Both the position numbers and the translations under genes were made by a program. From the UHGV virus genome UHGV-0261633: a stretch of DNA of 18,805 nt; one strand, 5' to 3'. Each line of letters starts with the position of its first letter. Position 1 is the first letter of the stretch. Of the stretch, positions 1 to 11,622 are shown piece by piece. Source of the DNA: a virus. The notes under the pieces are model-generated. The model ran no database searches and had not been told where the DNA came from. It was given only the letters and a program-made list of their open reading frames with translations.

Positions 1-1275
1 GGATTTACCAGCAGCGCCTGGGTCTTGAGGGATAAAAATACCAGTTCGCTTACCGTCACTTTCAGCAGTCAAATTAATTTGTGTTTCGACTCCAGAGGGT
101 CTATCTCTAAATCTTACTACATCAATGATATAATAGCAACCGTCTTTTTTAGATTTACCCATCTTAACACCTGCTGTCCAGTCTGGATTAGGGTTAATCT
201 CAGATGGTAAAGTTGCTGCTAAGTCCCATGCTCTGACATCGAATACATCTTCTGGGAGTGAATCAACAATTTCACACCATTGTCTTTGCCAATAGTTTGA
301 ACCTTCTGCACGAGCCTTCCAGTTACCGAAACGAAGTCTTGCAACGTTTACAGGGGTGTTGTTTTCCAACTTACCACGATATTTAGGTTCTAAGAAGTCA
401 AGAATTGGGTTATCATCAATCGTACCAGAGATGAATGTATATGTTTGAGGAATCTCAAGAGGAAACATTTCAAGAATCTTGTCTCTCTCCCAATCGGAAA
501 CCATAACACCATCATTCATTACATACCAACGAATACGACCACACTTTTCAGGGTCTGGGTAACCTTCTTCATCTAAGAATGGTTCTACCCAATCGTAAAT
601 AAAGTGGTCTCTGTCTGGGTTCATAGAAATCTTCATGTATGAATCACCTTCAGCCCCAGAACGTAGACGAGTCTGTAGGTATGAAATCTGTGAAGCAGAG
701 AAGTGCGTACCTTCGTCAAAGTAAATAGCTGAGTATTCAATACCCTGATGACCTTCAGCGTGCTTTTCAAGTTCTAGATAGGTAAACTTGATAGTTGCCC
801 CAGAAGGGAATGTGATAGTCATCTTCTGCTCGTGAGGAACCCCACCAAACTTACCAAATAGTTTCTTTGCAGCAGGCCACAAACCACCTTGTAGCTGTGT
901 TGTATTTCTACGGAAATATACAGCATTATAATTAGGGTCGTCAATAAACCTTAAAGAGTCCATTAACAATGCAGCAGTCTTACCAGCACCCGCAGCACCA
1001 CCATAGAGAACCAAGTCAGCATTAGTATTTAAAAAGACCTCTTGAGAACCCGGCTGAGGGGCTACATAGTTCTTATCAGTCATCAATTTGAAGATAAGTC
1101 TAACTTGGTCTGGTGTGTATCTTAATAAAGTCAGAATTTGAGTTGGAAGGAATTTAGAGGGGTCTTTACCGAATGATTTAATAATTTCTTTTACTTCATC
1201 AGAAAGCCCCAACTCTCCAGCTAGGACTTTCCTAACATCTTCCACTCGCTTCTGCTTAACAGCATTTAAGTCCAT
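1..1275 (-). CDS. terL: terminase large subunit (partial; N-terminal ~425 codons, C-terminus beyond window start)
   Basis: Minus-strand frame open from ATG (rc of 1273-1275) to the window edge; GGAGG RBS 7 nt upstream. Hand translation begins MDLNAVKQKRVEDV and contains Walker A LYGGAAGAGKT followed by FRRN, and Walker B-like AIYFDEGTHF. Assignment is from motif recognition, not a search. Confidence 0.65.
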   Translation of the reverse strand, partial: MDLNAVKQKRVEDVRKVLAGELGLSDEVKEIIKSFGKDPSKFLPTQILTLLRYTPDQVRLIFKLMTDKNYVAPQPGSQEVFLNTNADLVLYGGAAGAGKTAALLMDSLRFIDDPNYNAVYFRRNTTQLQGGLWPAAKKLFGKFGGVPHEQKMTITFPSGATIKFTYLELEKHAEGHQGIEYSAIYFDEGTHFSASQISYLQTRLRSGAEGDSYMKISMNPDRDHFIYDWVEPFLDEEGYPDPEKCGRIRWYVMNDGVMVSDWERDKILEMFPLEIPQTYTFISGTIDDNPILDFLEPKYRGKLENNTPVNVARLRFGNWKARAEGSNYWQRQWCEIVDSLPEDVFDVRAWDLAATLPSEINPNPDWTAGVKMGKSKKDGCYYIIDVVRFRDRPSGVETQINLTAESDGKRTGIFIPQDPGAAGKS

Positions 1276-1296
1276 TAAGCACCTCCGCAAATAGAA

Positions 1297-1497
1297 TTAT
1301 TCAGAGTCTGTAGCAGTCTCTTCTTTCTTAACTTCGAACTTTGCATCAACAGCATCAAGAAGTGCATCCATAGATGCTTCTTTAATATCAATACCTGTTG
1401 CTACAGACAATCTGTCTGCAATTGCCATGATAGTATTCTGCATAAATTCTAGCTTTTTGTTAGCTTCATAAAGTTCTTTATAAACGGTCTCGCTCAT
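1297..1497 (-). CDS. hypothetical protein (66 aa) directly upstream of terL
   Basis: ORF track; GGAG RBS about 9 nt upstream of ATG; stop 22 nt before the terL start. Confidence 0.5.
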   Translation of the reverse strand: MSETVYKELYEANKKLEFMQNTIMAIADRLSVATGIDIKEASMDALLDAVDAKFEVKKEETATDSE

Positions 1498-1532
1498 TAT
1501 GTTTTCTCCAAATAGTTAACCATGTTTCCCCT

Positions 1533-1557
1533 TAAAAAAGACGGTACAGAGACCGTC
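1533..1557 (-). terminator. intrinsic terminator (minus strand) downstream of the tRNA array
   Basis: Stem gacggt/accgtc (1540-1545 / 1552-1557), loop acagag, adjoining aaaaaa on + (1534-1539) gives a U-tract after the hairpin on the minus strand. Confidence 0.6.
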
Positions 1558-1700
1558 AAGGAGAAACCACAATGTACGTCAGAGACATACTGTATAAGAC
1601 TTCTTATAAAGTATAACTCTGTAAAAAAGCCCTGTCTAAAAATACTCTTCGGTAGCGAAAGGAAGAATACTTATAGCAGGGCATTATTATTATTTTAATT

Positions 1701-1717
1701 GAGAGAGAGAGAGAGAG
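1701..1717. repeat. (GA)8 dinucleotide microsatellite
   Basis: gagagagagagagagag read directly, just outside the tRNA-Cys 3' end. Confidence 0.9.
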
Positions 1718-1727
1718 TAAAATAACT

Positions 1728-1803
1728 TGGAGAATCCGAAGGGACTCGAACCCTTATAAACCTGTTTTGCAGACAGGCACATAGCCATTTCTGTCACGGA
1801 TTC
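1728..1803 (-). tRNA. tRNA-Cys (anticodon GCA)
   Basis: Hand fold: encoded CCA (tgg on + at 1728-1730), acceptor gaatccg/cggattc perfect, T-arm aaggg-actcgaa-ccctt, anticodon loop in tRNA sense CUGCAAA. Confidence 0.8.
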
Positions 1804-1807
1804 AAAT

Positions 1808-1900
1808 TGGAGGAAGATACCAGACTTGAACTGGTACACCGATTTCTCAGCTACTGGCAGTTTAGCAAACTGCTCCCTTACCTTTTAGGGTTAATCTTCC
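1808..1900 (-). tRNA. tRNA-Ser (anticodon GCU), type II
   Basis: Encoded CCA, acceptor ggaagat/atcttcc perfect, T-arm accag-acttgaa-ctggt, long variable arm, anticodon stem gcagt/actgc with loop UUGCUAA. Confidence 0.8.
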
Positions 1901-1902
1901 AT

Positions 1903-2637
1903 TTATTTCTGTAATGCGTTCTTCATTTCTGGTGTTGCAATAGTGTCAATTACACCAGTTTTACAAGCATCATCAAACCAGTCTGGTAAGATACCTGCTA
2001 AGAACCCATTGATATTCGTTTTAAGGTACTCTGCAATAAGGGCAGCTTCTTCTTCAATCATCTGCACAACTTCATCTGCATAAGCTGTAATCTTCGAGAT
2101 ACCTTCATTAATCTTACTAACAGCTTGGTTAGCTAAATCAGAAATAGTATCAAGACCTTTGTCAATAGCGTCTTGTAAGTCACTTAATACATCATTAACA
2201 CCGTCTAGTGCACTGTTAATCATATCAATAGCTTTTTGACCATACTCTGTAGCAACACCCATAATACCACTAAATGGTGTACAGCCAACTTGTTCACCTG
2301 CTGCACCCATAACATTAGAATAACCTTTTGCTACCTGCATACGTGATGAAAACTCATCAATGGACTTTTGACCGTAATCTGTCAGTGTTTTGGTAGTTGA
2401 TGTAGTGCTTGTCAGACTCGTGGTAAAGCTGTTAAGCAGAACTGTTGTAAGTCCAGCAGCAACAAGCTTATCCTTTACTGTAGGGTCTGATACAGAACTA
2501 ATAGAGCTTACAAGTGATGTAGAGGCAGCTACGGTTCCACCGAGAACTGCTGCACCAGTAATAAGGGGGTTAGAAAACCCTTTACCAGTTTTTAAGAGAT
2601 TAAAAATCTCCTTACCTTGTTCTGTCATCTCTTTCAT
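1903..2637 (-). CDS. hypothetical Ser/Thr-rich protein (~244 aa) embedded in the tRNA array
   Basis: ORF track 1903..2700, but the first 21 codons overlap tRNA-Phe and begin at a non-ATG codon; internal ATG at 2635-2637 has an AAGGTG RBS. Low-complexity S/T/A-rich N-terminal half. Confidence 0.55.
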   Translation of the reverse strand: MKEMTEQGKEIFNLLKTGKGFSNPLITGAAVLGGTVAASTSLVSSISSVSDPTVKDKLVAAGLTTVLLNSFTTSLTSTTSTTKTLTDYGQKSIDEFSSRMQVAKGYSNVMGAAGEQVGCTPFSGIMGVATEYGQKAIDMINSALDGVNDVLSDLQDAIDKGLDTISDLANQAVSKINEGISKITAYADEVVQMIEEEAALIAEYLKTNINGFLAGILPDWFDDACKTGVIDTIATPEMKNALQK

Positions 2638-2653
2638 TAAGCACCTTTGAAAT

Positions 2654-2730
2654 TGGTAGTCCAGTGGGATTTGAACCCTCTTCTCATGTTTTTCAGACAC
2701 GCGCTTTAACCATATAAGCTACTTGGACTA
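2654..2730 (-). tRNA. tRNA-Phe (anticodon GAA)
   Basis: Acceptor tagtcca/tggacta perfect, T-loop atttgaa (one mismatch in T-stem), anticodon loop CUGAAAA; 3' CCA encoding ambiguous. Confidence 0.7.
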
Positions 2731-2735
2731 TAAAT

Positions 2736-2811
2736 TGGGGTGACCTACGGGATTTGAACCCGTATAGACCATGTTCACAGCATGGGTCATTACCATTTAT
2801 GATAAGGCCAC
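2736..2811 (-). tRNA. tRNA-His (anticodon GUG)
   Basis: Encoded CCA, acceptor with one G-U, T-arm acggg-atttgaa-cccgt, anticodon stem ccatg/catgg with loop CUGUGAA. Confidence 0.8.
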
Positions 2812-2842
2812 ATTTAAGGACTCTCGTAAGAATCCTTAGAAG

Positions 2843-2918
2843 TGGCAGCGGCATAAGGATTTGAACCTTAATAAGACAGCTTCAGAGACTGCTGCATTGC
2901 CAGTTATGCTATACCGCT
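2843..2918 (-). tRNA. tRNA-Gln (anticodon CUG)
   Basis: Encoded CCA, T-arm taagg-atttgaa-cctta, D-arm gcat-tgccagtt-atgc, anticodon loop CUCUGAA. Confidence 0.75.
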
Positions 2919-2923
2919 AAATT

Positions 2924-3002
2924 TGGTACTCCATATCGGATTCGAACCGATACATAACACAGATTTTAAGTCTGGCCTCTCTGCCAATTGGAGTAATGGA
3001 GC
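2924..3002 (-). tRNA. tRNA with leucine anticodon UAA but type-I length (putative tRNA-Leu)
   Basis: Encoded CCA, discriminator A, acceptor actccat/atggagc (terminal G-U), T-arm atcgg-attcgaa-ccgat, anticodon loop CUUAAAA; about 7-nt variable loop, no long arm. Confidence 0.55.
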
Positions 3003-3004
3003 AT

Positions 3005-3080
3005 TGGCGGGGGATGTTGGAATTGAACCAACTTCTTCGATTTCAAAGACCGAGGTTTTAACCTTGTAAACTAATCCCCT
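3005..3080 (-). tRNA. tRNA-Gln (anticodon UUG)
   Basis: Encoded CCA, T-arm gttgg-aattgaa-ccaac, anticodon loop CUUUGAA. Confidence 0.75.
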
Positions 3081-3088
3081 TTAAATCT

Positions 3089-3646
3089 TTACTTTCTCAG
3101 TGGATGAATAAAGAATGCCAACATAACTCTTTCCCTTGAGAATGCTCTTTCTTCTGGGACAACACTTTTTAGCTTCCATCCAACATAAATTCTCCAGTAG
3201 AATTGTTTACCAAAGACTTTAATTGATGGGATAAAAGCGAATAATCCCCAAGCATTACTGTTCCACATTAGGAGATAACCTGTCTGATTATCTTCAGGGT
3301 CAGAACTTACGTTGATATTGCCTTTCCACTTAGTAACATCTTTTACATCTCTTCCTAACACATGGTAAGAGAAGTTATAAGCTTTGTTTCTCCAGAGCCA
3401 TCCAACTCTCTGCAAATAGACACCAAGCTTACCAATCTTTCTAATCTTAGCCCATCTTTTAACGTGACCTTCATCACCATCAATCGGGTTGTCATATGTC
3501 TCCATCCATCTGAATCCAAAAGGTAAGTGTCCTTTCTTCTCACTGTAAAATGGAACTACAAAAGGTGCTAAGATAACTGCTAAGATTGCTGCCAATGGTT
3601 CTAGCAAAGCTAAGAAAATCCATGAAGCATACTTCAAGTATCTCAT
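3089..3646 (-). CDS. hypothetical membrane protein (185 aa) embedded in the tRNA array
   Basis: ORF track; AGAGG RBS about 9 nt upstream; hydrophobic N-terminal segment IFLALLEPLAAILAVILAPFVVPF, Trp-rich remainder. Confidence 0.6.
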   Translation of the reverse strand: MRYLKYASWIFLALLEPLAAILAVILAPFVVPFYSEKKGHLPFGFRWMETYDNPIDGDEGHVKRWAKIRKIGKLGVYLQRVGWLWRNKAYNFSYHVLGRDVKDVTKWKGNINVSSDPEDNQTGYLLMWNSNAWGLFAFIPSIKVFGKQFYWRIYVGWKLKSVVPEERAFSRERVMLAFFIHPLRK

Positions 3647-3665
3647 TTAAATAGCCTCTTTAAAT

Positions 3666-3741
3666 TGGCGCAGGATAAGGGATTCGAACCCCTATTAACA
3701 GCTTCGTAGACTGTTGCTCTATCCATTTGAACTAATCCTGC
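3666..3741 (-). tRNA. tRNA-Arg (anticodon ACG)
   Basis: Encoded CCA, acceptor gcaggat/atcctgc perfect, T-arm aaggg-attcgaa-cccct, anticodon loop CUACGAA. Confidence 0.8.
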
Positions 3742-3855
3742 TTACCTACAAGAACACCATACAGTTTTTCACAAGAGTTGTTTTTACGCCTGTTTTTGAA
3801 TGACGCTATAAACTTTTTTGCAATTGATTTATTACTCATAGTGTTCTCCTAAAAT

Positions 3856-3933
3856 TGGTGTTCCAAGACGGATTCGAACCGTCACTAGTACAAGGTTTGA
3901 GCTTGCATCCTCTGCCAATTGGGATACTGGAAC
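3856..3933 (-). tRNA. tRNA with leucine anticodon CAA but type-I length (putative tRNA-Leu)
   Basis: Reverse complement GUUCCAG-UA-UCC..GGA-U-GCAAG-CUCAAAC-CUUGU-ACUAGU-GACGG-UUCGAAU-CCGUC-UUGGAAC-A-CCA; 6-nt variable loop, discriminator A. Confidence 0.55.
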
Positions 3934-3934
3934 A

Positions 3935-4009
3935 TGGTACTCACTAAAGGACTTGAACCTTTTTCTTCATCTTGTAAGGGTGATGTTTTACCATATAAAC
4001 TAAGCGAGT
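3935..4009 (-). tRNA. tRNA-Val (anticodon UAC)
   Basis: Encoded CCA, T-arm aaagg-acttgaa-ccttt, anticodon loop CUUACAA. Confidence 0.75.
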
Positions 4010-4011
4010 AT

Positions 4012-4102
4012 GAAAGAGGTCTGAAGTTGTGCCGCTAACTCAACTCCGTGGGATTTGTTACGGTCTTCAGTTGACTCAAAGCGGTCTTTCACTTGACCTC
4101 TA
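4012..4102 (-). ncRNA. tRNA-sized structured element without a canonical T-loop (possible tRNA-like RNA or degenerate tRNA)
   Basis: Outer stem agaggt (4015-4020) / acctct (4096-4101), inner stem ctgaag (4021-4026) / cttcag (4065-4070), internal hairpin ccgt..acgg (4046-4063); no GTTCGAAUC motif in either orientation. Strand not determined from sequence. Confidence 0.3.
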
Positions 4103-4105
4103 AAT

Positions 4106-4181
4106 TGGTGCTCCCACAAGGATTCGAACCCTGATAAGTTACTTACAAGGCAACCGTAATAGCCAATTATACGATAGGAGC
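4106..4181 (-). tRNA. tRNA-Thr (anticodon UGU)
   Basis: Reverse complement GCUCCUA-UC-GUAU-AAUUGGCUA-UUAC-G-GUUGC-CUUGUAA-GUAAC-..-CAGGG-UUCGAAU-CCUUG-UGGGAGC-A-CCA. Confidence 0.8.
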
Positions 4182-4188
4182 ATTAATT

Positions 4189-4263
4189 TGGAGCATCCAG
4201 AGGGAATCGAACCCTCAACCTCAGTTTGGAAGACTGTAATTTTCCCGTTTAAACTATGGATGC
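4189..4263 (-). tRNA. tRNA-Gly (anticodon UCC)
   Basis: Encoded CCA, acceptor gcatcca/tggatgc perfect, T-arm gaggg-aatcgaa-ccctc, anticodon loop CUUCCAA. Confidence 0.8.
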
Positions 4264-4269
4264 ACTAAT

Positions 4270-4345
4270 TGGTGGAGTCACCGAGAATTGAACTCGGTTC
4301 CCAAGTTTGCAAAACTCGAATTTTAACCATATAAACTATGACCCC
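4270..4345 (-). tRNA. tRNA-Ala (anticodon UGC)
   Basis: Encoded CCA, T-arm ccgag-aattgaa-ctcgg, anticodon loop UUUGCAA. Confidence 0.8.
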
Positions 4346-4351
4346 ATTGTT

Positions 4352-4427
4352 TGGTACAGGTGGAGGGAATTGAACCCATCGTCTTACTGATTAAGAGTCA
4401 GCCGCATAACCATTTTGCTACACCTGC
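4352..4427 (-). tRNA. tRNA-Lys (anticodon CUU)
   Basis: Encoded CCA, acceptor with terminal G-U, T-loop aattgaa (T-stem only 3 clean pairs), anticodon loop CUCUUAA; paralogous in outline to the tRNA at 5656-5731. Confidence 0.7.
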
Positions 4428-4434
4428 ATTAATT

Positions 4435-4512
4435 TGGTAGGAGACAAGGGATTCGAACCCTCAAACACCAACTTCTAAGGATGGTAGGTTTACCAATTAC
4501 CGTCAATCTCCC
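4435..4512 (-). tRNA. tRNA with leucine anticodon UAG but type-I length (putative tRNA-Leu)
   Basis: Encoded CCA, discriminator A, acceptor 7 pairs with two G-U, T-arm aaggg-attcgaa-ccctc, anticodon stem CCAUC/GUUGG (one mismatch) with loop CUUAGAA; D-arm poorly paired. Confidence 0.5.
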
Positions 4513-4593
4513 ATTAAATCTTTTTAGAGAACTTCTAAGAACCTAAGCAACAAGGTTCCACAACAAGCTGTAATAACCTTAGAAGCCCTCTAA

Positions 4594-4613
4594 AAAGACC
4601 TAAATAGGTCTTT
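4594..4613. other. AT-rich hairpin in array spacer (weak terminator-like)
   Basis: aaagacc-taaata-ggtcttt flanked by A/T runs; orientation and function unclear. Confidence 0.25.
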
Positions 4614-4767
4614 GCATAGTCTTGTTTAATCCGGTGACTAGAACCTTTGGAGAGCTTGATATTATCTCTTCTCCGTGACACCTACTAGGTGCTTTGACAG
4701 TGTACGACAATACACGAGGGATACCAAAGCAACATCCAAATGAAGCTTGGCTTTAAATCTTATTAGG

Positions 4768-4855
4768 CGGTAAGTAAAGGAGTCGAACCCTCACCGTATC
4801 TCTACAGTGGCAACTGTTTTCAAGACAGTTTGGCTACCATTAGCCGCTACCTACC
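4768..4855 (-). tRNA. tRNA-Ser (anticodon UGA), type II
   Basis: T-arm aaagg-agtcgaa-ccctc, ~20-nt variable region, anticodon stem actgt/acagt with loop CUUGAAA, acceptor ggtaagt/acctacc with one G-U; CCA apparently not encoded. Confidence 0.65.
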
Positions 4856-4868
4856 CCTAATAAGACTT

Positions 4869-4951
4869 TGGCATGGGACGGAGGAGTTGAACCCCTTTGA
4901 AACGGTTTTGGAGGCCGTTGCTCATGCCTTAGAGTCTTAACATCGTCCCAT
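4869..4951 (-). tRNA. tRNA-Trp (anticodon CCA)
   Basis: Encoded CCA, acceptor atgggac/gtcccat perfect, T-arm ggagg-agttgaa-cccct, anticodon loop CUCCAAA; D-region longer than canonical. Confidence 0.6.
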
Positions 4952-5093
4952 ATTATAATTCGAAGCTTACCCTGTTATCTCAACACTGTCAAGCTTCTTC
5001 TCAGATTATTTACATGTTCTGGAAAACATGAGATACAGACCACCTCCCTACAGGAAGACCCGCTAAGGCCGTCTAAGTAATCTGCTAACTATT

Positions 5094-5175
5094 TGGTCGA
5101 GGCGGCAGGACTCGAACCCGCATACTCCACTTACTCGGTTAACGGCGGTTTAGAAGACCGCTGAGATACGCCCCG
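5094..5175 (-). tRNA. tRNA-Arg-like (anticodon UCU) with non-canonical body
   Basis: Encoded CCA, acceptor cgaggcg/cgccccg, T-arm gcagg-actcgaa-cccgc, perfect anticodon arm GCGGU-CUUCUAA-ACCGC; but only 7 nt between acceptor and anticodon stem (no room for a D-arm) and 23 nt between anticodon and T arms. Confidence 0.45.
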
Positions 5176-5423
5176 TAATTATCTTTAAAGACTCTCTTAG
5201 AAAGCCCTTAAAGATGCCCACCTTATTAATCATACCGTGGGCGAGTACGCCAAATTCTTTAATGAGGGATTGGAAGACCTCACTGGTGTTTAGCCTATCA
5301 AGCTACTGCCAGAAAAACATTGTCGTTTGCATTTATTTTAAATTTGCAAAATAGACGCTACGCAACGAAAACTAAGGTTACTATAAAGTAGTCACATCTC
5401 AATGTCAACAACTTTATTGAAAT

Positions 5424-5498
5424 TGGTTGTAGGTGAGGGTATCGAACCCTCTTCTAACGGTTATCAGCCGTTTGCATTACCATTTATGCTAACCCACA
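5424..5498 (-). tRNA. tRNA-Ile (anticodon GAU)
   Basis: Encoded CCA, T-arm gaggg-tatcgaa-ccctc, D-arm gcat-taccattt-atgc, anticodon stem aacgg/ccgtt with loop CUGAUAA. Confidence 0.8.
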
Positions 5499-5500
5499 AT

Positions 5501-5577
5501 TGGAGGTTCAGATGGGAATCGAACCCACATTCATAGGGCTTATGAAACCCCTGCATTACCTTATCTGCGACTGAACC
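5501..5577 (-). tRNA. tRNA-Met (anticodon CAU), elongator-like acceptor
   Basis: Encoded CCA, acceptor ggttcag/ctgaacc perfect, T-arm atggg-aatcgaa-cccac, anticodon stem GGGGU/GCCCU with loop UUCAUAA. Confidence 0.7.
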
Positions 5578-5655
5578 AGAATAAGTACCCTAGTTAGAGA
5601 AACTGTTGAGTGGGTGTTTCCAGCCGCGCAGGTGTTTCTCAGTTAAGGGTGAATT

Positions 5656-5731
5656 TGGTAGAAGTGGAGGGATTCGAACCCATCGCCTGTCAGATTAAAA
5701 GTCTGCCGCATCACCATTCTGCTACACTTCC
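5656..5731 (-). tRNA. tRNA-Lys (anticodon UUU)
   Basis: Encoded CCA, acceptor with terminal G-U, T-loop attcgaa, anticodon loop CUUUUAA. Confidence 0.7.
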
Positions 5732-5736
5732 ATTAA

Positions 5737-5876
5737 ATTATCTTTGTAGATAAGCTACCCAGACTTGCTTAAGGTCTGTAGCGATGTGCCTTTTGGGTTT
5801 AAATCTAGAATTTACCCTTCACCCTTTGTGGTCGCATACTCACAGGTAAGCTTAATAACTTATCTACAAAGATAAT
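5737..5876. repeat. 18-bp perfect inverted repeat flanking a 104-bp ORF-free segment
   Basis: attatctttgtagataag (5737-5754) is the exact reverse complement of cttatctacaaagataat (5859-5876). Confidence 0.85.
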
Positions 5877-5920
5877 TACCAGACCGTTGTTTATCATCTT
5901 AAGTGCTACCATTACACCAA

Positions 5921-5975
5921 CTCGACATCTGCCGAGTGAAGGAATCGAACCTTCGCCTTTTCTTTACCGGAGAAA
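5921..5975 (-). other. tRNA fragment-like element (canonical T-arm plus one hairpin, no matching acceptor 5' strand)
   Basis: T-arm gaagg-aatcgaa-ccttc (5938-5954) and hairpin tttct-ttaccgg-agaaa (5958-5974); no complementary acceptor strand found downstream. Confidence 0.3.
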
Positions 5976-5990
5976 TAGATTGTTTAAGTT

Positions 5991-6018
5991 TTGCTGTAAA
6001 CGGTCTTCTGTAAATTTG
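5991..6018. repeat. 28-bp exact direct repeat, copy 1 (ttgctgtaaacggtcttctgtaaatttg)
   Basis: Identical 28-mer at 6471-6498; degenerate copies at about 6078-6097 and 6638-6658. Confidence 0.85.
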
Positions 6019-6130
6019 TTGAGCCAGACCAAGTTTTAAATTTTCAAAATTAAATTGGCTTGAAATTTCATACATTCTTGCTGTATTTGGTCTTCTGCTC
6101 CTTTAAAGAATACTCGTAAGAACTCTTTAA

Positions 6131-6153
6131 GGGAGGGGCTAAATAGCCCTCTC
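6131..6153. other. GC-rich hairpin gggaggggct-aaat-agccctctc
   Basis: Shares the 15-mer ggggctaaatagccc with a hairpin at 18364-18378. Confidence 0.5.
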
Positions 6154-6158
6154 AAAAT

Positions 6159-6235
6159 TGGCGGCTACGATGAGACTTGAACTCACATCATCTCCCGTGA
6201 CAGGGGAGTATTTTCTCCAGTTAAACTACATAGCC
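6159..6235 (-). tRNA. tRNA-Asp (anticodon GUC)
   Basis: Encoded CCA, T-arm atgag-acttgaa-ctcac, anticodon stem ctccc/gggag perfect with loop CUGUCAC. Confidence 0.8.
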
Positions 6236-6240
6236 TTTAT

Positions 6241-6328
6241 TGGTGTGCCGTGTAGGAGTCGAACCTACCGAGTCTCAATGACAAGGGATTTACAGTCCCC
6301 ACCGCTACCATCTACGGGATAACGACAC
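6241..6328 (-). tRNA. tRNA-Tyr (anticodon GUA), type II
   Basis: Encoded CCA, T-arm gtagg-agtcgaa-cctac, ~15-nt variable region, anticodon loop CUGUAAA. Confidence 0.75.
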
Positions 6329-6336
6329 ATTTAATT

Positions 6337-6413
6337 TGGCGGTTAGTCAGGGATTCGAACCCTGTGCCATTCGCTTAACAGGCGACCGCACATACCTTAT
6401 GTGCTTCCTAACC
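6337..6413 (-). tRNA. tRNA-Asn (anticodon GUU)
   Basis: Encoded CCA, T-arm caggg-attcgaa-ccctg, D-arm gcac-ataccttat-gtgc, anticodon loop CUGUUAA. Confidence 0.75.
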
Positions 6414-6470
6414 ATGTTTAGTATTACCAGACCGTATCTTTCAATTTTTCCGCTAAAAATTTAATAAGTA

Positions 6471-6498
6471 TTGCTGTAAACGGTCTTCTGTAAATTTG
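6471..6498. repeat. 28-bp exact direct repeat, copy 2, abutting the 3' end of a tRNA-Met gene
   Basis: Identical to 5991-6018. Confidence 0.85.
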
Positions 6499-6573
6499 GA
6501 GGCGGGTGCAGGAGTCGAACCTGCCGATACCATGCTAATGAGACATGTGAGACGCCCTTTCTCTATACCCGCA
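6497..6573 (-). tRNA. tRNA-Met (anticodon CAU), possibly initiator-type or tRNA-Ile2
   Basis: Encoded CCA, T-arm gcagg-agtcgaa-cctgc perfect, anticodon stem CAUGU/GCAUG with loop CUCAUUA, D-arm gaga-cgccctt-tctc; position 1-72 appears unpaired. Confidence 0.65.
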
Positions 6574-6664
6574 ATTCTTAATGACCAGACCAAATCTCTT
6601 CTTTGTCCGATTTACCTTCAGATGAATAAGATTAAGTTTGCTGTAATTGGTCTTCTGTCAAAAC

Positions 6665-6742
6665 TGGCGTTCCAGAAGGGATTTGAACCCTCAAATATCC
6701 ACTTTGAAAGAGTGGTGACTTTACCATTTTGTCTACTGGAAC
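6665..6742 (-). tRNA. tRNA-Glu (anticodon UUC)
   Basis: Encoded CCA, acceptor gttccag/ctggaac perfect, T-arm aaggg-atttgaa-ccctc, anticodon stem ccact/agtgg with loop CUUUCAA. Confidence 0.8.
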
Positions 6743-6749
6743 ATTAATT

Positions 6750-6826
6750 TGGTCTCTGTTGGAGGACTTGAACCTCCGGCCTTACCGCCCCAAACGGAAC
6801 GCTCTACCAAGCTGAGCTAAACAGAG
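6750..6826 (-). tRNA. tRNA-Pro (anticodon UGG)
   Basis: Encoded CCA, acceptor ctctgtt/aacagag perfect, T-arm ggagg-acttgaa-cctcc, D-arm gctc-taccaagct-gagc, anticodon loop UUUGGGG. Confidence 0.8.
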
Positions 6827-6991
6827 ATAAACTTTTAAAACTCTATGTAACCACTTTAACATTATTTTTTAGTGGCTGTCAAGAACTTTTTTAAAATATT
6901 TTTCAGTATCTTAGAAAAGCTCTCATTTCGTTTCTATGTAGAACATATTAAAGGGTATTAAACACATTGTCAATACCCTTTTTAAAACTTT

Positions 6992-8407
6992 TTACCAGAT
7001 ATAACGGTCAATCATTACTGCTTTGAGCATTACGCTGATTGGGTCAAACTTCTCACCACTAAGCAGAGCTTTTAAAGTGGCTGGAGAGAAACCAGATACC
7101 ATTGCTACACCGTTATCCTTAACAGATACTTCGCAAGTACCATTACGGTTTGCTAAGTACCAGAATACCAGTTGTGGCATCTCATATCCAGCTTTTTTGT
7201 ACTTACTCTGAATTGCTTCAAAGTTTGTACGACCGTTAGCTCCATCAACCTGATTGAACTCCATATCGGAGAAGATGATAAGCTTACTTGGCATATCTTT
7301 CTGAGTCAAGTTGTTTCTTTTACCTGTTTCAAGAATGCGGTCAAAAGCTGCTTGTAAGTTAGTTGAGCCATATTCAACGTGTCGCATCACCTGACGATGA
7401 CGGTTTCGTAAATCACCACTCAGTTCGATGAAGTGAGGGTTTGTCGAATAAACCATCAACTCATTCTTAAAGCAACCTGTATTGCGTTCTGCTACATACA
7501 AGGCAAGTGATACACCAATATCCAGAGCAGTAATGGAGCCAAAATTCACCCAAGACATTGAACTTGATACATCAGACATACACAAGATGTTTTCACCTTC
7601 TGCCATCCAGTTTGGTAGTGCTTTCCACTGCTCATTAGCAACATCTGCATTACCATACTTGACAGATTTAATCACATCGTATGGGTAAACAGCACCAGCG
7701 TTAATCTTAGTCTCACCTTTTGATAAGGACTCGATGTAAGCTTTGTAACGCTCTCCATCTTTACGGTTAAACAGTTTTTGGTAACGTGCAGCAGCAAGTG
7801 AAGGAATCTTACTGTAGTCAATCTTACCAAACTCATTAGCAGAGATTTTTTGCTCAACTGTATCAGATAGTGCAGACAACAGTGTGCGGTACTCTTTCTC
7901 ACTCAAGTTGGCAAACTTGCAGAAACGTTTTACAAACTGCTTATGACGTGGTTTGACTCGTGGTAACCACTTAGCCGCCAAACCTGCTGTTGCAGGGTCT
8001 AGTAATGCTGCTTCTAAATGTTTGAAGGCATCTGTCTCGAAACGAGTACCTACGAAGATTTTGAAGTCATCAAAACGACCAAGTTCTGCAATCTTATCCA
8101 TAATGCGAAGAACCTGTGTAGGCTCTAAAACTTTATCTTCAATTGCTTGAAGCAAAACAGTTCTGAAGGCTTTACGCTCACCCATACCTTCTCGTACATC
8201 TCGCATATGCAGTAAAATACGAACTGCAACATCAACATCCTCACGCAAAGCTTTGTAGAACAGGTCTGGTAAGATTTCTACATTGCTACGGCTTGAACCA
8301 GCAGCTTTGTAAAAGTCTACAAGAGCAGACATTGATGAAGTATGGTTTACAGCACCATTTTCAGTTCGACCTGCATGAAGGTGCGCATGTTTAAATAATT
8401 CGCTCAT
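6992..8407 (-). CDS. von Willebrand factor A (vWA/MIDAS) domain protein, 471 aa, with ~270-aa helical N-terminal domain
   Basis: ORF track; C-terminal half has a DxSxS MIDAS motif (ILCMSDVSSSMS) and a vWA-like hhhhSD motif (KLIIFSDMEFNQ); GAGAG RBS. Domain call is from motif recognition only. Confidence 0.8.
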   Translation of the reverse strand: MSELFKHAHLHAGRTENGAVNHTSSMSALVDFYKAAGSSRSNVEILPDLFYKALREDVDVAVRILLHMRDVREGMGERKAFRTVLLQAIEDKVLEPTQVLRIMDKIAELGRFDDFKIFVGTRFETDAFKHLEAALLDPATAGLAAKWLPRVKPRHKQFVKRFCKFANLSEKEYRTLLSALSDTVEQKISANEFGKIDYSKIPSLAAARYQKLFNRKDGERYKAYIESLSKGETKINAGAVYPYDVIKSVKYGNADVANEQWKALPNWMAEGENILCMSDVSSSMSWVNFGSITALDIGVSLALYVAERNTGCFKNELMVYSTNPHFIELSGDLRNRHRQVMRHVEYGSTNLQAAFDRILETGKRNNLTQKDMPSKLIIFSDMEFNQVDGANGRTNFEAIQSKYKKAGYEMPQLVFWYLANRNGTCEVSVKDNGVAMVSGFSPATLKALLSGEKFDPISVMLKAVMIDRYIW

Positions 8408-8446
8408 ATTTTACTCTCTTCTCTCATTTGTTGTTTGATGTGACAG

Positions 8447-8476
8447 ACTTTAGAGCAACTTTGTAGAGTCTGTCAA
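8447..8476 (-). promoter_or_regulatory. candidate sigma70-like promoter on the minus strand upstream of the vWA gene
   Basis: Minus-strand TTGACA (rc of 8471-8476), 18-nt spacer, TAAAGT (rc of 8447-8452); overlaps inverted repeat tgacagac/gtctgtca. Confidence 0.35.
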
Positions 8477-8488
8477 CACCTTTTAAAA

Positions 8489-8860
8489 TTATTTTTTGAG
8501 GGTTGCAACAGCAGAGAACGTTGGTTTGTTGTCTGTCTGAGACTGACCACCATTATCAGGGGTCTTCTTAGTGTCTGCTGCAATCGCTTTCATCTCACCT
8601 GCTGAGTGGGTCATGATAGTTTTACCAGCTTCCATCATCGACTTCAGGTTTACATCGTCAGTCGTCAAACCGAACTCTGCAAGCTTAGCAGCGTCCCTTG
8701 TAACAATCGCTTCAAACAACTTTGCAGCAAACTCAGCAGAATTATCAATGGTCAGTTGAGCTTTTACAAGTGAGCTTTTGTTACGTGAGCCTTTTGGTCT
8801 TCCAGATGGGTTTCCAGACTGGCCTTTTTTAAACTGGCCTTTGTTTGTTCTGTTTTTCAT
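8489..8860 (-). CDS. hypothetical basic protein (123 aa) with N-terminal GQSGNPSGRPKG motif
   Basis: ORF track; AAGAGG RBS 8 nt upstream. Lys/Gly-rich N-terminus; I recall this motif from small phage DNA-binding/terminase-small-subunit-associated proteins, unverified here. Confidence 0.65.
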   Translation of the reverse strand: MKNRTNKGQFKKGQSGNPSGRPKGSRNKSSLVKAQLTIDNSAEFAAKLFEAIVTRDAAKLAEFGLTTDDVNLKSMMEAGKTIMTHSAGEMKAIAADTKKTPDNGGQSQTDNKPTFSAVATLKK

Positions 8861-9035
8861 TGGTATGCCTCTTATAAGACCTCTTAAAAGGCTTTTAAGA
8901 TAAAAGATAGATATCCAGAAAGATATCTGTTTAAATAGCCTTTTTAGAGGAACCTTTTAAGTTATCTTCTAAGTATTTATAAGCCTACACCTTGTCAAGT
9001 ACTTTGTCAACAACTTTTTTAACTTGCAATAGTTC

Positions 9036-9064
9036 TTGACTTGTTGTATGGATTACTGTACCAT
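9036..9064 (+). promoter_or_regulatory. candidate sigma70-like promoter for the plus-strand gene block
   Basis: TTGACT (9036-9041), 17-nt spacer, TACCAT (9059-9064), in the divergent intergenic region 8861-9109. Confidence 0.3.
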
Positions 9065-9109
9065 CTTACTTAAAGCTGTAGGTCTGCCTTGTTCTACAAA
9101 GGAGACTTA

Positions 9110-9271
9110 ATGAGAAAATCAAATAACCCGAAGAAAGGTAAAAATACCAATCACTGTAAGGAATCAAAAAGGGTAGAGTTACTCTACTATTCATCCTCTG
9201 AAATTGGTCTGTACCTGTTCTTTCAAAATTACAGAAGACAAGAGGATTATCTATGTGTAGTTCCCAATTAG
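9110..9271 (+). CDS. hypothetical small basic protein (53 aa from internal ATG)
   Basis: ORF track 9089..9271 starts at TTG; ATG at 9110 has an AAGGAGA RBS. Confidence 0.35.
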   Translation: MRKSNNPKKGKNTNHCKESKRVELLYYSSSEIGLYLFFQNYRRQEDYLCVVPN

Positions 9272-9486
9272 AAATCGCAGATATTATAGATTTATATCAA
9301 ACTGCAAAGAGTCATGGCTATATAACCTCAATTGGAAAGAATAGTCACTATGATGCTTTGACTGGAATGTATTTCAGGGCAATGGCTCAATCTAGTGAAC
9401 AACACTTAATGGTTTCTTCCAGTGAGTTTACTTCGTTTCTCTATTGCAGCAAAATTATAAATCGCAGGAGAACTGAAAAATGTTAA
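9253..9486 (+). CDS. hypothetical protein (77 aa)
   Basis: ORF track; AAGAGGA RBS upstream; overlaps neighbours. Confidence 0.4.
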   Translation: MCSSQLEIADIIDLYQTAKSHGYITSIGKNSHYDALTGMYFRAMAQSSEQHLMVSSSEFTSFLYCSKIINRRRTEKC

Positions 9487-10117: not shown

Positions 10118-10489
10118 ATGAAAGCTAAGAGTGCAAAAGACTTTTATTGCTTCCTACAATCCTATATCAATTCCGTGCAAAATGGTGAAAGGTACAACCT
10201 TAATGATGTTATCCCAACACCTTTGACATGGAGACTCAGTAAATGGCCTGAAGAAGATATTACACCAACAAGCGAACAGCGTACCTACAAACCTGAAATT
10301 AATATTCCAGACTCTGAGAATCTATTATACCCAATGTTCCATATTGTTGGTCTTGGAAGATTCCTTATGGATATCCAGTATGTAATTGGTAAAGGTTATA
10401 AGGTTAAAGATATTGTCGTTGGTGATGTATCTCCGAATCACAAAGGTTATTTTAGACTAAACGCACATTTAGAGGCTGAAAAGAAATGA
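10118..10489 (+). CDS. hypothetical protein (123 aa), paralogous to the N-terminal domain of the next gene
   Basis: ORF track; shares an aligned pattern with the next ORF (YPDFKEF../KDFYCF.., GxRYx, W..PE.DI, YKP.., FxMDxQY). Confidence 0.7.
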   Translation: MKAKSAKDFYCFLQSYINSVQNGERYNLNDVIPTPLTWRLSKWPEEDITPTSEQRTYKPEINIPDSENLLYPMFHIVGLGRFLMDIQYVIGKGYKVKDIVVGDVSPNHKGYFRLNAHLEAEKK

Positions 10490-11622
10490 TTAAAGCAAAG
10501 ACTTACCCAGACTTCAAAGAGTTTGTGAAGGGCTTCATTGCAAACGTAAAGGCTGGTAAGAGATATGATTTTAGAACATATCAAGAGGCTATTTTACCAC
10601 TTACCTATAGCTCGTATTGGCCTGAAGCTGATATTGCAGAAGTTGAGAAGTTTGACTATAAACCAGACTACAAAGTTCCATTTAGTGATGAGTTGCTTTA
10701 CAGTGTTGGTGCTCAAATGAGAACTTCTGACTTCTTCATGGACTTACAATATGCAATTATCAATGGTAAAGACGTTGATACAGTTTATTGTGAATGGCTG
10801 GCAAGAGTTAAACCATTCTCAATGTTGAATGCTAAGTTGAAGGACGCTATCAAGCCACCATCAATCACTCAGCAACCAACCAATCAAACAGTAAATGAAG
10901 GTGGTACACTTACCCTAAGCGTTATTGCAACTAATGCCACTGGATATCAATGGAAAAAGGATGGTGAGGATATCACTAGCGCCACATCTGCAACTTACAC
11001 AAAACAGTCAGTAGCACCTTCTGACGCTGGTTCATATACTTGTGTTGTATCTGGGGAGGGTGGGACAAGTGTCACATCAGATGCAGCAACAGTTACTGTG
11101 AATGCCTTACCAGTGATTACCAAGCAACCTTCTAACCAGACCGTTAATGAAGGTGGAAACATCAGCTTAGCAGTTACTGCAACAGGTGCAACTGGTTACC
11201 AATGGAAGAAAGATGGTTCCGACATCCCTTCAGCTACAAAGGCCACATATAGCAAATCTGGTGCACTTCCAGCAGATGCTGGCTCATACACTTGCGTTGT
11301 AACAGGTGCTGGAGGTTCGGTTACTTCTAACCCTGCAACTATCACAGTAAACGCACTACCAGTTATTACTCAGCAACCAACAAATCAAGAAATCACAGAA
11401 GGTGAAACCTTGACACTAAGTGTTGTAGCTACTGGTGCAACAGGCTATCAGTGGAAGAAAGATAACGTAAACATTCCTAGTGCAACTGCTGCAACTTACA
11501 CCAAAGAAAGTGCAACGAGTGCAGATGATGCAGGAAGCTACACTTGTGTAGTAACTGGCGCAGGTGGTTCGGTAACATCTAATGCGGCAACAGTTACAGT
11601 TAATCCAGCAGGAGGTGAATAA
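10486..11622 (+). CDS. protein with paralogous N-terminal domain plus three tandem Ig-like domains (378 aa)
   Basis: ORF track; three ~82-aa repeats each with QPxNQxVxEGxxLxL..ATGYQWKKDG...AGSYTCVV.GAGGSVTS..ATVTVN, a typical Ig-like (I-set-type) signature. Confidence 0.85.
   Translation: MIKAKTYPDFKEFVKGFIANVKAGKRYDFRTYQEAILPLTYSSYWPEADIAEVEKFDYKPDYKVPFSDELLYSVGAQMRTSDFFMDLQYAIINGKDVDTVYCEWLARVKPFSMLNAKLKDAIKPPSITQQPTNQTVNEGGTLTLSVIATNATGYQWKKDGEDITSATSATYTKQSVAPSDAGSYTCVVSGEGGTSVTSDAATVTVNALPVITKQPSNQTVNEGGNISLAVTATGATGYQWKKDGSDIPSATKATYSKSGALPADAGSYTCVVTGAGGSVTSNPATITVNALPVITQQPTNQEITEGETLTLSVVATGATGYQWKKDNVNIPSATAATYTKESATSADDAGSYTCVVTGAGGSVTSNAATVTVNPAGGE
10861..11598 (+). repeat. three tandem ~246-bp coding repeats (Ig-like domain units)
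   Basis: Approximate unit boundaries 10861/11107/11353, read from the protein repeats. Confidence 0.8.

What the first reader, a model, noticed from the sequence alone, without database searches (positions are those of the whole stretch)
6992..8407. vWA/MIDAS protein adjacent to the tRNA array: possible Ro60-like RNA-binding protein
The 471-aa protein has a C-terminal vWA domain with MIDAS motif DVSSSMS and an FSDMEFN motif reminiscent of the Ro60 vWA domain, preceded by a ~270-aa helical domain. Ro60 orthologs bind tRNA-like Y RNAs and are known in some phages; adjacency to tRNAs and tRNA-like elements makes this worth testing. The TROVE assignment is a hypothesis, not established here.
Basis: inference. 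Interest (0 to 1): 0.6.

Follow-up and report, generated by a model that had tools for sequence, protein, structure and literature searches.

The report
Ro60-like ring protein of Felixounavirus
This phage gene encodes a ring-shaped Ro60-like protein next to the phage's tRNA genes, but its near-identical counterpart in phage Bas63 has already been described as Ro60-like and as a counter to the bacterial Ppl defence, so the finding is correct but not new.

Summary
A 471-aa ORF lies at 6992-8407 on the minus strand, 165 nt upstream of a same-strand array of 25-26 tRNAs. It has a ~270-aa helical N-domain and a C-terminal vWA domain with a complete, family-invariant MIDAS (D279, S281, S283, T349, D381).

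The window is a Felixounavirus. The protein belongs to DUF2828+DUF7788 / PHROG 850 ("RNA-binding protein").

The idea is already published. Bas63 gp130 (97.7% identical, same synteny) was reported as Ro60-like and as a counter to Ppl, and it works alone in T7.

No YrlA/Y RNA was found, although a positive control worked. tRNA linkage across the family is enriched but facultative. RNA binding and mechanism remain untested.

The parts
6992..8407 (-). Ro60-like protein gene (471 aa + stop). DUF2828+DUF7788 family, PHROG 850. Ortholog of Bas63 gp130 (bas63_0130).
   Evidence: ORF. Pfam DUF7788 E 1.6e-43 and DUF2828 E 3.9e-29. PHROG 850 E 4.7e-184. 97.7% identical to MZ501086.1 80319-81731, with the same position directly upstream of tRNA-Pro.
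7598..8407 (-). N-terminal helical domain (residues ~1-270), TROVE/HEAT-repeat-like, basic (pI 9.25).
7088..7597 (-). vWA domain (residues ~271-440) with a complete MIDAS.
   Evidence: Pfam DUF7788 covers 274-455. hhalign to the Ro60 vWA. vWA hits.
7559..7573 (-). MIDAS DxSxS (D279, S281, S283).
   Evidence: Invariant in 68 diverse homologs. Aligned to Ro60 DVSASM. Numbering.
7361..7363 (-). MIDAS threonine T349 (GSTN).
   Evidence: Invariant. Aligned to Ro60 GGTD. phiLo Ro60 uses the equivalent T391 to bind Ca2+.
7265..7267 (-). MIDAS aspartate D381 (FSDMEFN).
   Evidence: Invariant. Aligned to Ro60 TDNET. The phiLo equivalent is D416.
6995..7087 (-). C-terminal helices (residues 441-471) after the vWA domain. 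They probably pack back onto the helical ring, as in phiLo Ro60 (inference).
   Evidence: Helices 442-450 and 456-464 in the model. phiLo Ro60 has a vWA inserted in the HEAT domain with a returning C-terminal helix. Coordinates of the model could not be inspected.
8447..8476 (-). Promoter-like site TTGACA-N18-TAAAGT about 40 nt upstream of the ATG.
   Evidence: Consensus scan only. The total number of such sites is not above the shuffle expectation.
6950..6981 (-). 12-bp hairpin just after the stop codon.
   Evidence: and the sequence. The function is not established (terminator, processing site, or overlap with a promoter-like TTGACA).
6853..6882 (-). Second TTGACA-N18-TAAAGT promoter-like site, 27 nt upstream of tRNA-Pro. 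It suggests the tRNA array can be transcribed separately.
   Evidence: consensus match only.
1728..6826 (-). Same-strand tRNA array (25 ARAGORN tRNAs, a 26th by Rfam, plus tRNA-like elements). This is genomic context, not shown to be a functional part.
   Evidence: The same layout occurs in TP1, Bas63 and Yersinia phage P778.

Best explanation
The ORF is the Felixounavirus ortholog of Bas63 gp130. It is a Ro60-like protein of the DUF2828/DUF7788 family, built from a basic TROVE-fold alpha-helical ring domain and a vWA domain with an intact metal-binding MIDAS site. It appears to have its own promoter-like site at the head of the phage's tRNA block (its timing of expression was not tested). Its only demonstrated biological role, shown for the ortholog and not tested here, is to protect the phage from the host Ppl defence. 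Ppl is reported to be an ssDNA 3'-5' exonuclease triggered by 3'-OH ends. gp130 does this without any other Bas63 component. The mechanism I consider most likely is inferred. Like Ro60, the ring binds single-stranded 3' ends or structured nucleic acids, either in its central cavity or on its basic surface. This would shield the ends that Ppl senses or degrades, or titrate the nuclease through an RNA or MIDAS-mediated contact. The same activity could serve a general tRNA/RNA-handling role, which would explain why the gene is so often placed beside tRNA arrays. Identity, fold and orthology are shown here. Nucleic-acid binding and the mode of Ppl inhibition are inferred.
Against: No nucleic-acid binding has been shown for any DUF2828-type protein. 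No Y RNA/YrlA was detected. 42 of 75 family loci have no tRNA in the available flanks, and no protein partner recurs. The anti-Ppl data come from one preprint on the ortholog. Its authors proposed inhibition of Ppl DNA degradation without a mechanism. The 3'-end-shielding idea is my own inference, made by combining with the known Ro60 structure 2i91.
Confidence: 0.55

Rival explanations
1. It is a classical Ro60-Y RNA ribonucleoprotein. The protein needs a phage-encoded Y-like or tRNA-like RNA from the adjacent array, for example the noncanonical tRNA-like gene at 4874-4949 or one of the annotated 'tRNAs'. With that RNA it recruits or modulates host exoribonucleases such as PNPase for tRNA/RNA quality control or repair.
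For: Ro60-like fold. The gene sits directly upstream of the tRNA array here and in distant phages. In Gordonia phage Boopy a YrlA-like RNA (52 bits, E 8e-9) lies inside the tRNA array downstream of canonical Ro60 and overlaps features annotated as tRNAs. phiLo phage Ro60 binds two phage Y-like RNAs and host PNPase. A conserved noncanonical tRNA-like element exists in the array.
Against: There is no YrlA or Y_RNA hit in the window even at E<=10, although the same search detects YrlA near canonical phage Ro60. gp130 alone rescues T7, which has no tRNA array, on Ppl. More than half of family loci lack nearby tRNAs. The tRNA-like element has normal tRNA topology with an encoded CCA end rather than the YrlA arrangement, and it is confined to the Felixounavirus/P778 lineage.
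Confidence: 0.25
2. It is a direct protein inhibitor. The invariant MIDAS site of the vWA domain captures an acidic residue of a host protein, either Ppl itself or another defence or nuclease protein. The helical domain is only a scaffold, and no nucleic acid is involved.
For: All five MIDAS residues are invariant across 68 homologs at 40-89% identity, which argues for a conserved metal-dependent ligand contact. MIDAS domains such as Rea1/midasin and integrin I domains, which are the next-best structural matches, bind protein ligands. gp130 works as a single transferable gene in T7.
Against: The family is spread over phages of Proteobacteria, Firmicutes, Actinobacteria, Campylobacter and cyanobacteria, and also giant eukaryotic viruses. 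That is hard to reconcile with one specific host-protein target. Conservation of the whole Ro60-like ring, the basic N-domain and the tRNA linkage are left unexplained. Canonical Ro60 also keeps its MIDAS while being an RNA-binding protein.
Confidence: 0.17
3. It is a virion or structural protein, or an unrelated vWA adhesin-type protein, whose similarity to Ro60 is only architectural.
For: One record (Salmonella phage 7t3) labels its 37%-identical homolog 'structural protein' (H59).
Against: The Bas63 cryo-EM virion study does not mention gp130. The gene lies in the tRNA block, outside the structural module. PhageMaP treats it as a counter needed only on the Ppl host. The full-length structural match is specific to Ro60.
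Confidence: 0.03

Closest known systems
Bas63 (Escherichia phage JohannRWettstein) gp130 / bas63_0130, reported in the PhageMaP preprint (PMC11482910)
   Same: 97.7% identical over all 471 residues. Same position directly upstream of tRNA-Pro at the head of the tRNA array, in the same genus. It has already been described as structurally Ro60-like and as a counter to the Ppl defence, with the suggestion that some neighbouring tRNAs may be Y RNAs.
   Different: Nothing substantive: about 11 amino-acid differences. The anti-Ppl activity of this particular allele is untested.
DUF2828/DUF7788 family (PHROG 850). Annotated 'RNA-binding protein' in RefSeq, 'vWFA protein' in some GenBank records, and 'Ro-like RNA binding protein' in cluster-L mycobacteriophages such as Rumpelstiltskin gp54
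   Same: Full-length homology: 31-34% identity to the cluster-L proteins, 29-54% to proteins of Listeria, Enterococcus, Campylobacter, Vibrio and Yersinia phages. Both Pfam domains are above threshold. Structural twins exist in Acinetobacter phage ME3 (TM 0.88) and Pithovirus (TM 0.86).
   Different: None at the family level; this ORF is a typical member. No function has been demonstrated for the family beyond the Bas63 preprint.
Ro60 / Rsr (TROVE PF05731 + vWA). Xenopus and human Ro60 (1yvp, 2i91, 9nen), D. radiodurans Rsr (2nvo), Thermus phage phiLo Ro60 (9l5y)
   Different: About 65 residues shorter than Ro60. No Pfam TROVE match, and no detectable sequence similarity in the first 215 residues. 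Only 13-16% identity in structural alignments. No YrlA/Y RNA nearby. RNA binding and PNPase association are unknown. It counters a DNA-targeting defence in the one experiment available.
Generic MIDAS-vWA proteins (midasin/Rea1 MIDAS, NorD, integrin I domains, BatB)
   Different: They lack the N-terminal TROVE-like ring. No AAA+ MoxR/NorQ-type partner was annotated in any locus examined or found among the recurrent neighbours.

Membership tests
Ro60 / TROVE family (PF05731 + vWA) | Sequence match to the TROVE domain model. | tested here: not met
   Pfam scan at E<=1 returns only DUF7788 and DUF2828. hhalign of residues 1-215 against Ro60 1-295 gives probability 0.2%. The family profile against PDB gives Ro60 only at E 0.55, in the vWA part.
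Ro60 / TROVE family (PF05731 + vWA) | Helical HEAT-repeat ring fused to a vWA domain (doughnut architecture). | tested here: met
Ro60 / TROVE family (PF05731 + vWA) | Complete MIDAS motif (DxSxS...T...D) in the vWA domain, homologous to Ro60's. | tested here: met
   D279, S281, S283, T349 and D381 are invariant in 68 homologs. They align with the Ro60 MIDAS at 90.5% hhalign probability, E 1.4e-6.
Ro60 / TROVE family (PF05731 + vWA) | Y RNA / YrlA-type partner RNA encoded within ~4 kb on the same strand. | tested here: not met
   No RF02553 (YrlA) or Y_RNA hit in window 1-9300 at E<=10. Positive control: YrlA hits beside canonical Ro60 in Boopy (52 bits) and Alice (37 bits). A divergent, unmodelled partner RNA cannot be excluded.
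Ro60 / TROVE family (PF05731 + vWA) | Binds misfolded RNA 3' ends in the cavity and Y RNA on the outer surface; associates with PNPase. | not testable with these tools
   This requires EMSA, RIP-seq or structures. The only indirect evidence is the basic N-domain, pI 9.25.
DUF2828/DUF7788 family (PHROG 850) | Both Pfam domains above gathering score, and a full-length PHROG match. | tested here: met
   DUF7788 at 149 bits (cut-off 27.1) and DUF2828 at 102.2 bits (cut-off 29). PHROG 850 E 4.7e-184 over 1-471 of 476.
Bas63 gp130-type anti-Ppl counter-defence protein | Orthology to bas63_0130 (near-identity and conserved synteny). | tested here: met
   97.7% identity over 471 aa. In both phages the gene sits between the DUF5681 gene and tRNA-Pro.
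Bas63 gp130-type anti-Ppl counter-defence protein | Confers resistance to Ppl. | not testable with these tools
   Shown for Bas63 gp130 only: deletion, complementation and transfer to T7. PADLOC has no match, as expected for a phage counter-defence gene.
MoxR/NorQ-associated vWA proteins | Adjacent AAA+ ATPase partner. | tested here: not met
   No AAA+ gene is annotated in TP1, Bas63 or the seven distant phage loci. None appears among the ten recurrent or window neighbour proteins scanned with Pfam. The window's other ORFs were not scanned individually.

The most novel reading that the evidence does not exclude
DUF2828-type Ro60-like rings are a widespread viral class of nucleic-acid 3'-end caps, present in about 1.4% of phage records and in giant viruses. 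On this reading, they thread single-stranded 3' ends (RNA, and possibly the ssDNA 3'-OH ends that Ppl senses) through the TROVE-like cavity. This would blind or block end-dependent host nucleases. In tRNA-rich phages they would also chaperone or protect phage tRNAs or noncanonical tRNA-like RNAs, such as the 8/4-stem tRNA-Trp-like gene at 4874-4949, acting as functional analogues of Y RNAs. That would extend Ro60 biology from RNA quality control to anti-defence against a DNA exonuclease.
Probability: 0.15. Interest if true: 0.7.

Novelty: already known. Interest (0 to 1): 0.3.

Why it matters
The gene itself is an ordinary, conserved Felixounavirus gene. Its Ro60-like nature is already in databases (PHROG 850, the RefSeq name 'RNA-binding protein', the actinobacteriophage name 'Ro-like RNA binding protein') and in a 2024 preprint that also gives it a phenotype (anti-Ppl).

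What remains open is biochemical. No DUF2828-type protein has been shown to bind RNA. The link between a Ro60-like ring and a DNA 3'-5' exonuclease defence is unexplained. The family is large and reaches into giant viruses. Working out its ligand would clarify why phages so often place Ro60-like genes beside tRNA arrays, and it could supply a portable anti-defence module for engineered phages.

Tried and rejected
1. Sequence searches against PDB with the single protein and with a 68-sequence profile gave nothing significant. Ro60 appeared only at E 0.55.
2. NCBIfam and PADLOC gave no meaningful hits.
3. hhalign of the N-terminal 215 residues against the TROVE N-terminal region gave no signal at any MAC threshold. 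The Ro60 profile was shallow (7 sequences), so power was limited.
4. The Rfam search for Y RNA/YrlA in the window at E<=10 was negative.
5. I tested the conserved tRNA-like element 4874-4949 as a family-wide partner RNA. A covariance model (R1) finds it only in the window and in P778. All other hits are ordinary tRNAs, so I rejected it as a general partner.
6. I looked for an obligate protein partner by clustering neighbour ORFs over 83 loci. No family occurs in more than 18 loci. The recurrent ones (ClpP, DnaJ, RNase HII) reflect clade synteny.
7. The virion-protein idea has no support in the Bas63 cryo-EM paper.
9. Literature searches found no primary paper on the Ppl mechanism and no follow-up on gp130 in the held library. 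The DUF2828 literature is only incidental mentions.

Full report
OBSERVATION. The window carries an ATG-initiated ORF of 471 codons at 6992-8407, on the minus strand. The ORF stop lies 165 nt upstream of tRNA-Pro (6750-6826, minus strand). That tRNA is the first of 25 ARAGORN-called tRNAs running down to 1728. Rfam adds a 26th at 5097-5175, which TP1 and Bas63 annotate as tRNA-Arg. The only missing detail was the strand.

IDENTITY OF THE GENOME AND GENE. The region is 98.5% identical to Felixounavirus genomes such as heid, warpig, typing phage 1 and wV8. Public records name the gene 'vWFA protein', 'RNA-binding protein' (RefSeq) or 'hypothetical protein'. Pfam gives DUF7788 (residues 274-455, E 1.6e-43) and DUF2828 (E 3.9e-29), and no TROVE match at E<=1. 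PHROGs gives a full-length match to PHROG 850, 'RNA-binding protein' (E 4.7e-184). NCBIfam and PADLOC give nothing.

The family is large. It has more than 2,546 clusters in the protein collection, and all 120 listed carry DUF2828, nearly all with DUF7788 as well. It occurs in 710 of 50,697 phage records across Escherichia, Salmonella, Mycobacterium, Vibrio, Listeria, Staphylococcus, Campylobacter, Enterococcus, Bacillus and Synechococcus phages. At least 590 IMG/VR stretches encode relatives. The cluster-L mycobacteriophage homologs (31-34% identity, full length) are already annotated 'Ro-like RNA binding protein'.

STRUCTURE. A 68-sequence alignment (A1) gave an AF2 model with mean pLDDT 90.1 and pTM 0.89. 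It is almost entirely helical to about residue 263, then has an alpha/beta domain from 274, then two C-terminal helices.

Foldseek against PDB puts eleven Ro60/TROVE chains first, with full-length alignments, E 4.6e-8 to 2.3e-6 and TMq 0.41-0.64. These are phiLo phage Ro60 9kop/9l5y, human and Xenopus Ro60 9nf8/2i91/9nfa/9nep/1yvp, and Deinococcus Rsr 2nvo. vWA-only proteins follow at E>=1.8e-3.

Against BFVD, the best matches are DUF2828/DUF7788 proteins of phages and of giant eukaryotic viruses: Acinetobacter phage ME3 TM 0.88, Pithovirus TM 0.86, then Marseillevirus, CroV and ChoanoV1. Next come TROVE/'Ro-like' phage proteins at E about 5e-9, and then vWA-only proteins.

SEQUENCE-LEVEL HOMOLOGY. 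I used it to collect canonical TROVE-type phage Ro60s, which occur in 358 records, and aligned seven sequences (A2).

hhalign of A1 against A2 gives 90.5% probability and E 1.4e-6 for query 212-439 against Ro60 291-529. It aligns AVYPYDV with the RIHPF helix, DVSSSM with DVSASM, GSTN with GGTD, SDMEF with TDNET, and VSGFSP with MCGFDT. The N-terminal 215 residues alone give no signal (probability 0.2%). The five MIDAS residues (D279, S281, S283, T349, D381) are invariant in all 68 homologs. They correspond to the Ca2+ ligands seen in phiLo Ro60.

Conclusion: this is a distant sister family of Ro60. It is homologous in the vWA and the last ring helices, and it is Ro60-like in overall fold. It is not a Ro60 ortholog and not a Pfam TROVE member.

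PRIOR KNOWLEDGE. [quoted passage not shown] It suggests that some of these may be Y RNAs, and it identifies g130 as a counter to the Ppl defence system. Deleting it gives tiny plaques on a Ppl host, and complementation restores them. gp130 alone, from a plasmid or inserted in T7, restores T7 plaquing on Ppl and even improves it beyond the no-defence control.

Bas63 is Escherichia phage JohannRWettstein (MZ501086.1). Its bas63_0130 is 97.7% identical to the window protein and has the same neighbours, the DUF5681 gene upstream and tRNA-Pro downstream. A 2020 paper had also flagged a 'Ro60-related' structural homolog in a Vibrio jumbo phage, though I did not verify that this protein belongs to the DUF2828 family.

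PARTNER RNA. Rfam in E-value mode over window 1-9300 finds no YrlA (RF02553) or Y_RNA at E<=10. As a positive control, the same library finds YrlA-like RNAs beside canonical phage Ro60. In Gordonia phage Boopy the hit is 52 bits (E 8e-9), sits inside the tRNA array and overlaps features annotated as tRNAs. In Mycobacterium phage Alice the hit is 37 bits. Nothing was found beside the DUF2828-type gene of Rumpelstiltskin.

I compared the array spacers with Yersinia phage P778, whose protein is 53% identical. Two conserved elements emerged.

Element 1 (window 4874-4949, minus strand) folds as a noncanonical tRNA. It has an 8-bp acceptor stem, a 4-bp T stem with a canonical T-loop, a D-like hairpin that keeps the GG, and a 5-bp anticodon stem closing a 9-nt loop that contains U-CCA-A. 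A G+CCA 3' end is encoded. In the alignment 97.5% of cells are paired, four pairs change on both sides, and slid controls pair at most 55%. No other tRNA-Trp is called in the array. A covariance model finds this element only in the window (112 bits) and in P778 (94 bits). All other hits are ordinary tRNAs at 37 bits or less. It is thus lineage-specific and has normal tRNA topology. That makes it a possible but unsupported partner, and more likely an unusual tRNA-Trp.

GENOMIC CONTEXT ACROSS THE FAMILY. In seven distant phages, six have same-strand tRNA arrays 0.2-4 kb from the gene: P778, Campylobacter CP81, Enterococcus EFDG1, Listeria List-36, Vibrio K566 and Bacillus FADO. Rumpelstiltskin has none. 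In List-36 an RtcB-type 'tRNA splicing ligase' and an RNA ligase lie just downstream.

In 75 further IMG/VR loci at 39-47% identity, the nearest tRNA is within 1 kb in 17, within 5 kb in 25 and within 10 kb in 33. All 310 tRNAs are on the gene's strand, and arrays lie mostly downstream, as in the window. 42 loci have none in the available flank. Among the 33 loci with a tRNA within 10 kb, 17 have it within 1 kb, against about 3 expected under uniform placement. The linkage is therefore enriched but facultative, and the loci are not phylogenetically independent. Clustering of neighbour ORFs over 83 loci shows no obligate protein partner.

MECHANISM. The following are shown here: fold, family, MIDAS conservation, orthology to gp130 and enriched tRNA linkage. 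From the literature on the ortholog comes the stand-alone anti-Ppl activity. A 2026 review describes Ppl as an ssDNA 3'-5' exonuclease that is activated by nucleotide depletion and by 3'-OH ends made by phage homing endonucleases.

The rest is inferred. Ro60's central cavity threads single-stranded 3' ends (structure 2i91, established knowledge), and the N-domain here is basic (pI 9.25). The most economical model is that the ring binds single-stranded 3' ends or structured nucleic acids and thereby shields them from end-dependent nucleases or titrates those nucleases. A general tRNA/RNA-handling role would explain its placement beside tRNA arrays.

There are three rivals. The first is a classical Ro60-Y RNA RNP that depends on an RNA from the array; it is weakened by the T7 transfer result and the negative YrlA search. 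The second is a purely protein-protein MIDAS inhibitor of Ppl; it is weakened by the enormous host range of the family. The third is a structural protein, which has essentially no support.

TRANSCRIPTION LAYOUT. Promoter-like TTGACA-N18-TAAAGT sites precede both the ORF (8476-8447) and tRNA-Pro (6882-6853), and a 12-bp hairpin follows the ORF stop (6981-6950). These are consensus matches only. The total count of such sites does not exceed the shuffle expectation.

VERDICT. The protein is a typical member of the DUF2828/DUF7788 'Ro-like' family and a near-identical ortholog of an already characterised counter-defence gene. Novelty: already known. Residual interest lies in the undetermined ligand and mechanism.

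Noticed in passing
window 4874-4949 (-); homolog at L003 (Yersinia phage P778) 9411-9494: An unannotated, conserved noncanonical tRNA-like gene just 5' of tRNA-Ser(tga). It has an 8-bp acceptor stem and a 4-bp T stem, a 9-nt linker before a D-like hairpin, a 9-nt anticodon loop containing U-CCA-A (Trp), and an encoded G+CCA end. Four pairs show compensatory changes against P778. ARAGORN misses it, and Rfam gives only 23 bits to the tRNA-Sec model. No other tRNA-Trp is called in the array. It may be an unusual tRNA-Trp or a tRNA-like decoy or partner RNA.
   Followed up: partly
window 5601-5647 (-), inside the 78-nt spacer 5578-5655: A 47-nt segment is 89% identical to P778 (L003 8911-8957). 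It is not found by BLAST in the closely related Felixounaviruses held (TP1, Bas63 and L016-L020); in TP1, tRNA-Lys and tRNA-Met are only 4 nt apart. This looks like a small indel or mobile or regulatory element. Its predicted structure is weak (z -2.8).
   Followed up: partly
window 5097-5175 (-): A tRNA above the Rfam gathering score (31.7 bits) that ARAGORN does not call. It is annotated tRNA-Arg (AGA) in TP1 and Bas63, which brings the array to 26 tRNAs.
   Followed up: partly
window 5937-5987 (-) and 5298-5481 (-): Sub-threshold tRNA-like signals in the large spacers. One is a partial tRNA (22 bits, model positions 7-64). The other is a 'permuted tmRNA' hit (32.5 bits) that overlaps tRNA-Ile and is probably driven by it. 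They may be tRNA remnants.
   Followed up: no
L011 (Gordonia phage Boopy) 6724-6823: A YrlA-like RNA (RF02553, 52 bits, E 8e-9) lies inside the tRNA array downstream of canonical Ro60. It overlaps features annotated as tRNA-Gln/tRNA-Leu, so at least one annotated 'tRNA' there is probably a Y RNA.
   Followed up: partly
L006 (Enterococcus phage EFDG1) 1071-1421; L011 (Boopy) 5947-6350: Phage-encoded tmRNAs are embedded in the tRNA arrays next to the Ro-like (EFDG1, DUF2828-type) and Ro60 (Boopy, TROVE-type) genes. The EFDG1 tmRNA (140 bits) is not annotated in the RefSeq record.
   Followed up: no
L007 (Listeria phage List-36) 7075-11455: Downstream of the DUF2828-type gene lie an HD phosphohydrolase, an RtcB-type 'tRNA splicing ligase', a 'tRNA amidotransferase' and an RNA ligase. 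This RNA-repair neighbourhood is reminiscent of the bacterial rsr-yrlBA-rtcBA operon.
   Followed up: no
window 1903-2700 (-), 3089-3646 (-), 8489-8860 (-): Two protein genes are embedded in the tRNA array (DUF7217, 265 aa; DUF7338, 185 aa). A DUF5681 gene (123 aa) sits immediately upstream of the Ro-like gene. All are of unknown function. The DUF5681 position is conserved in TP1 and Bas63, and P778 has a 119-aa ORF of unchecked family at the same position.
   Followed up: partly
BFVD hits: The DUF2828/DUF7788 Ro60-like fold is shared with giant eukaryotic viruses: Pithovirus LCPAC304 at TM 0.86, plus Marseillevirus, Cafeteria roenbergensis virus and ChoanoV1. The family therefore spans bacterial and eukaryotic viruses.
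   Followed up: no
window 10486-11622 (+): The ORF at this position is 378 aa here, 293 aa ('tail protein') in TP1 and 460 aa ('immunoglobulin-like domain protein') in Bas63. It is a length-variable gene just upstream of the endolysin.
   Followed up: no
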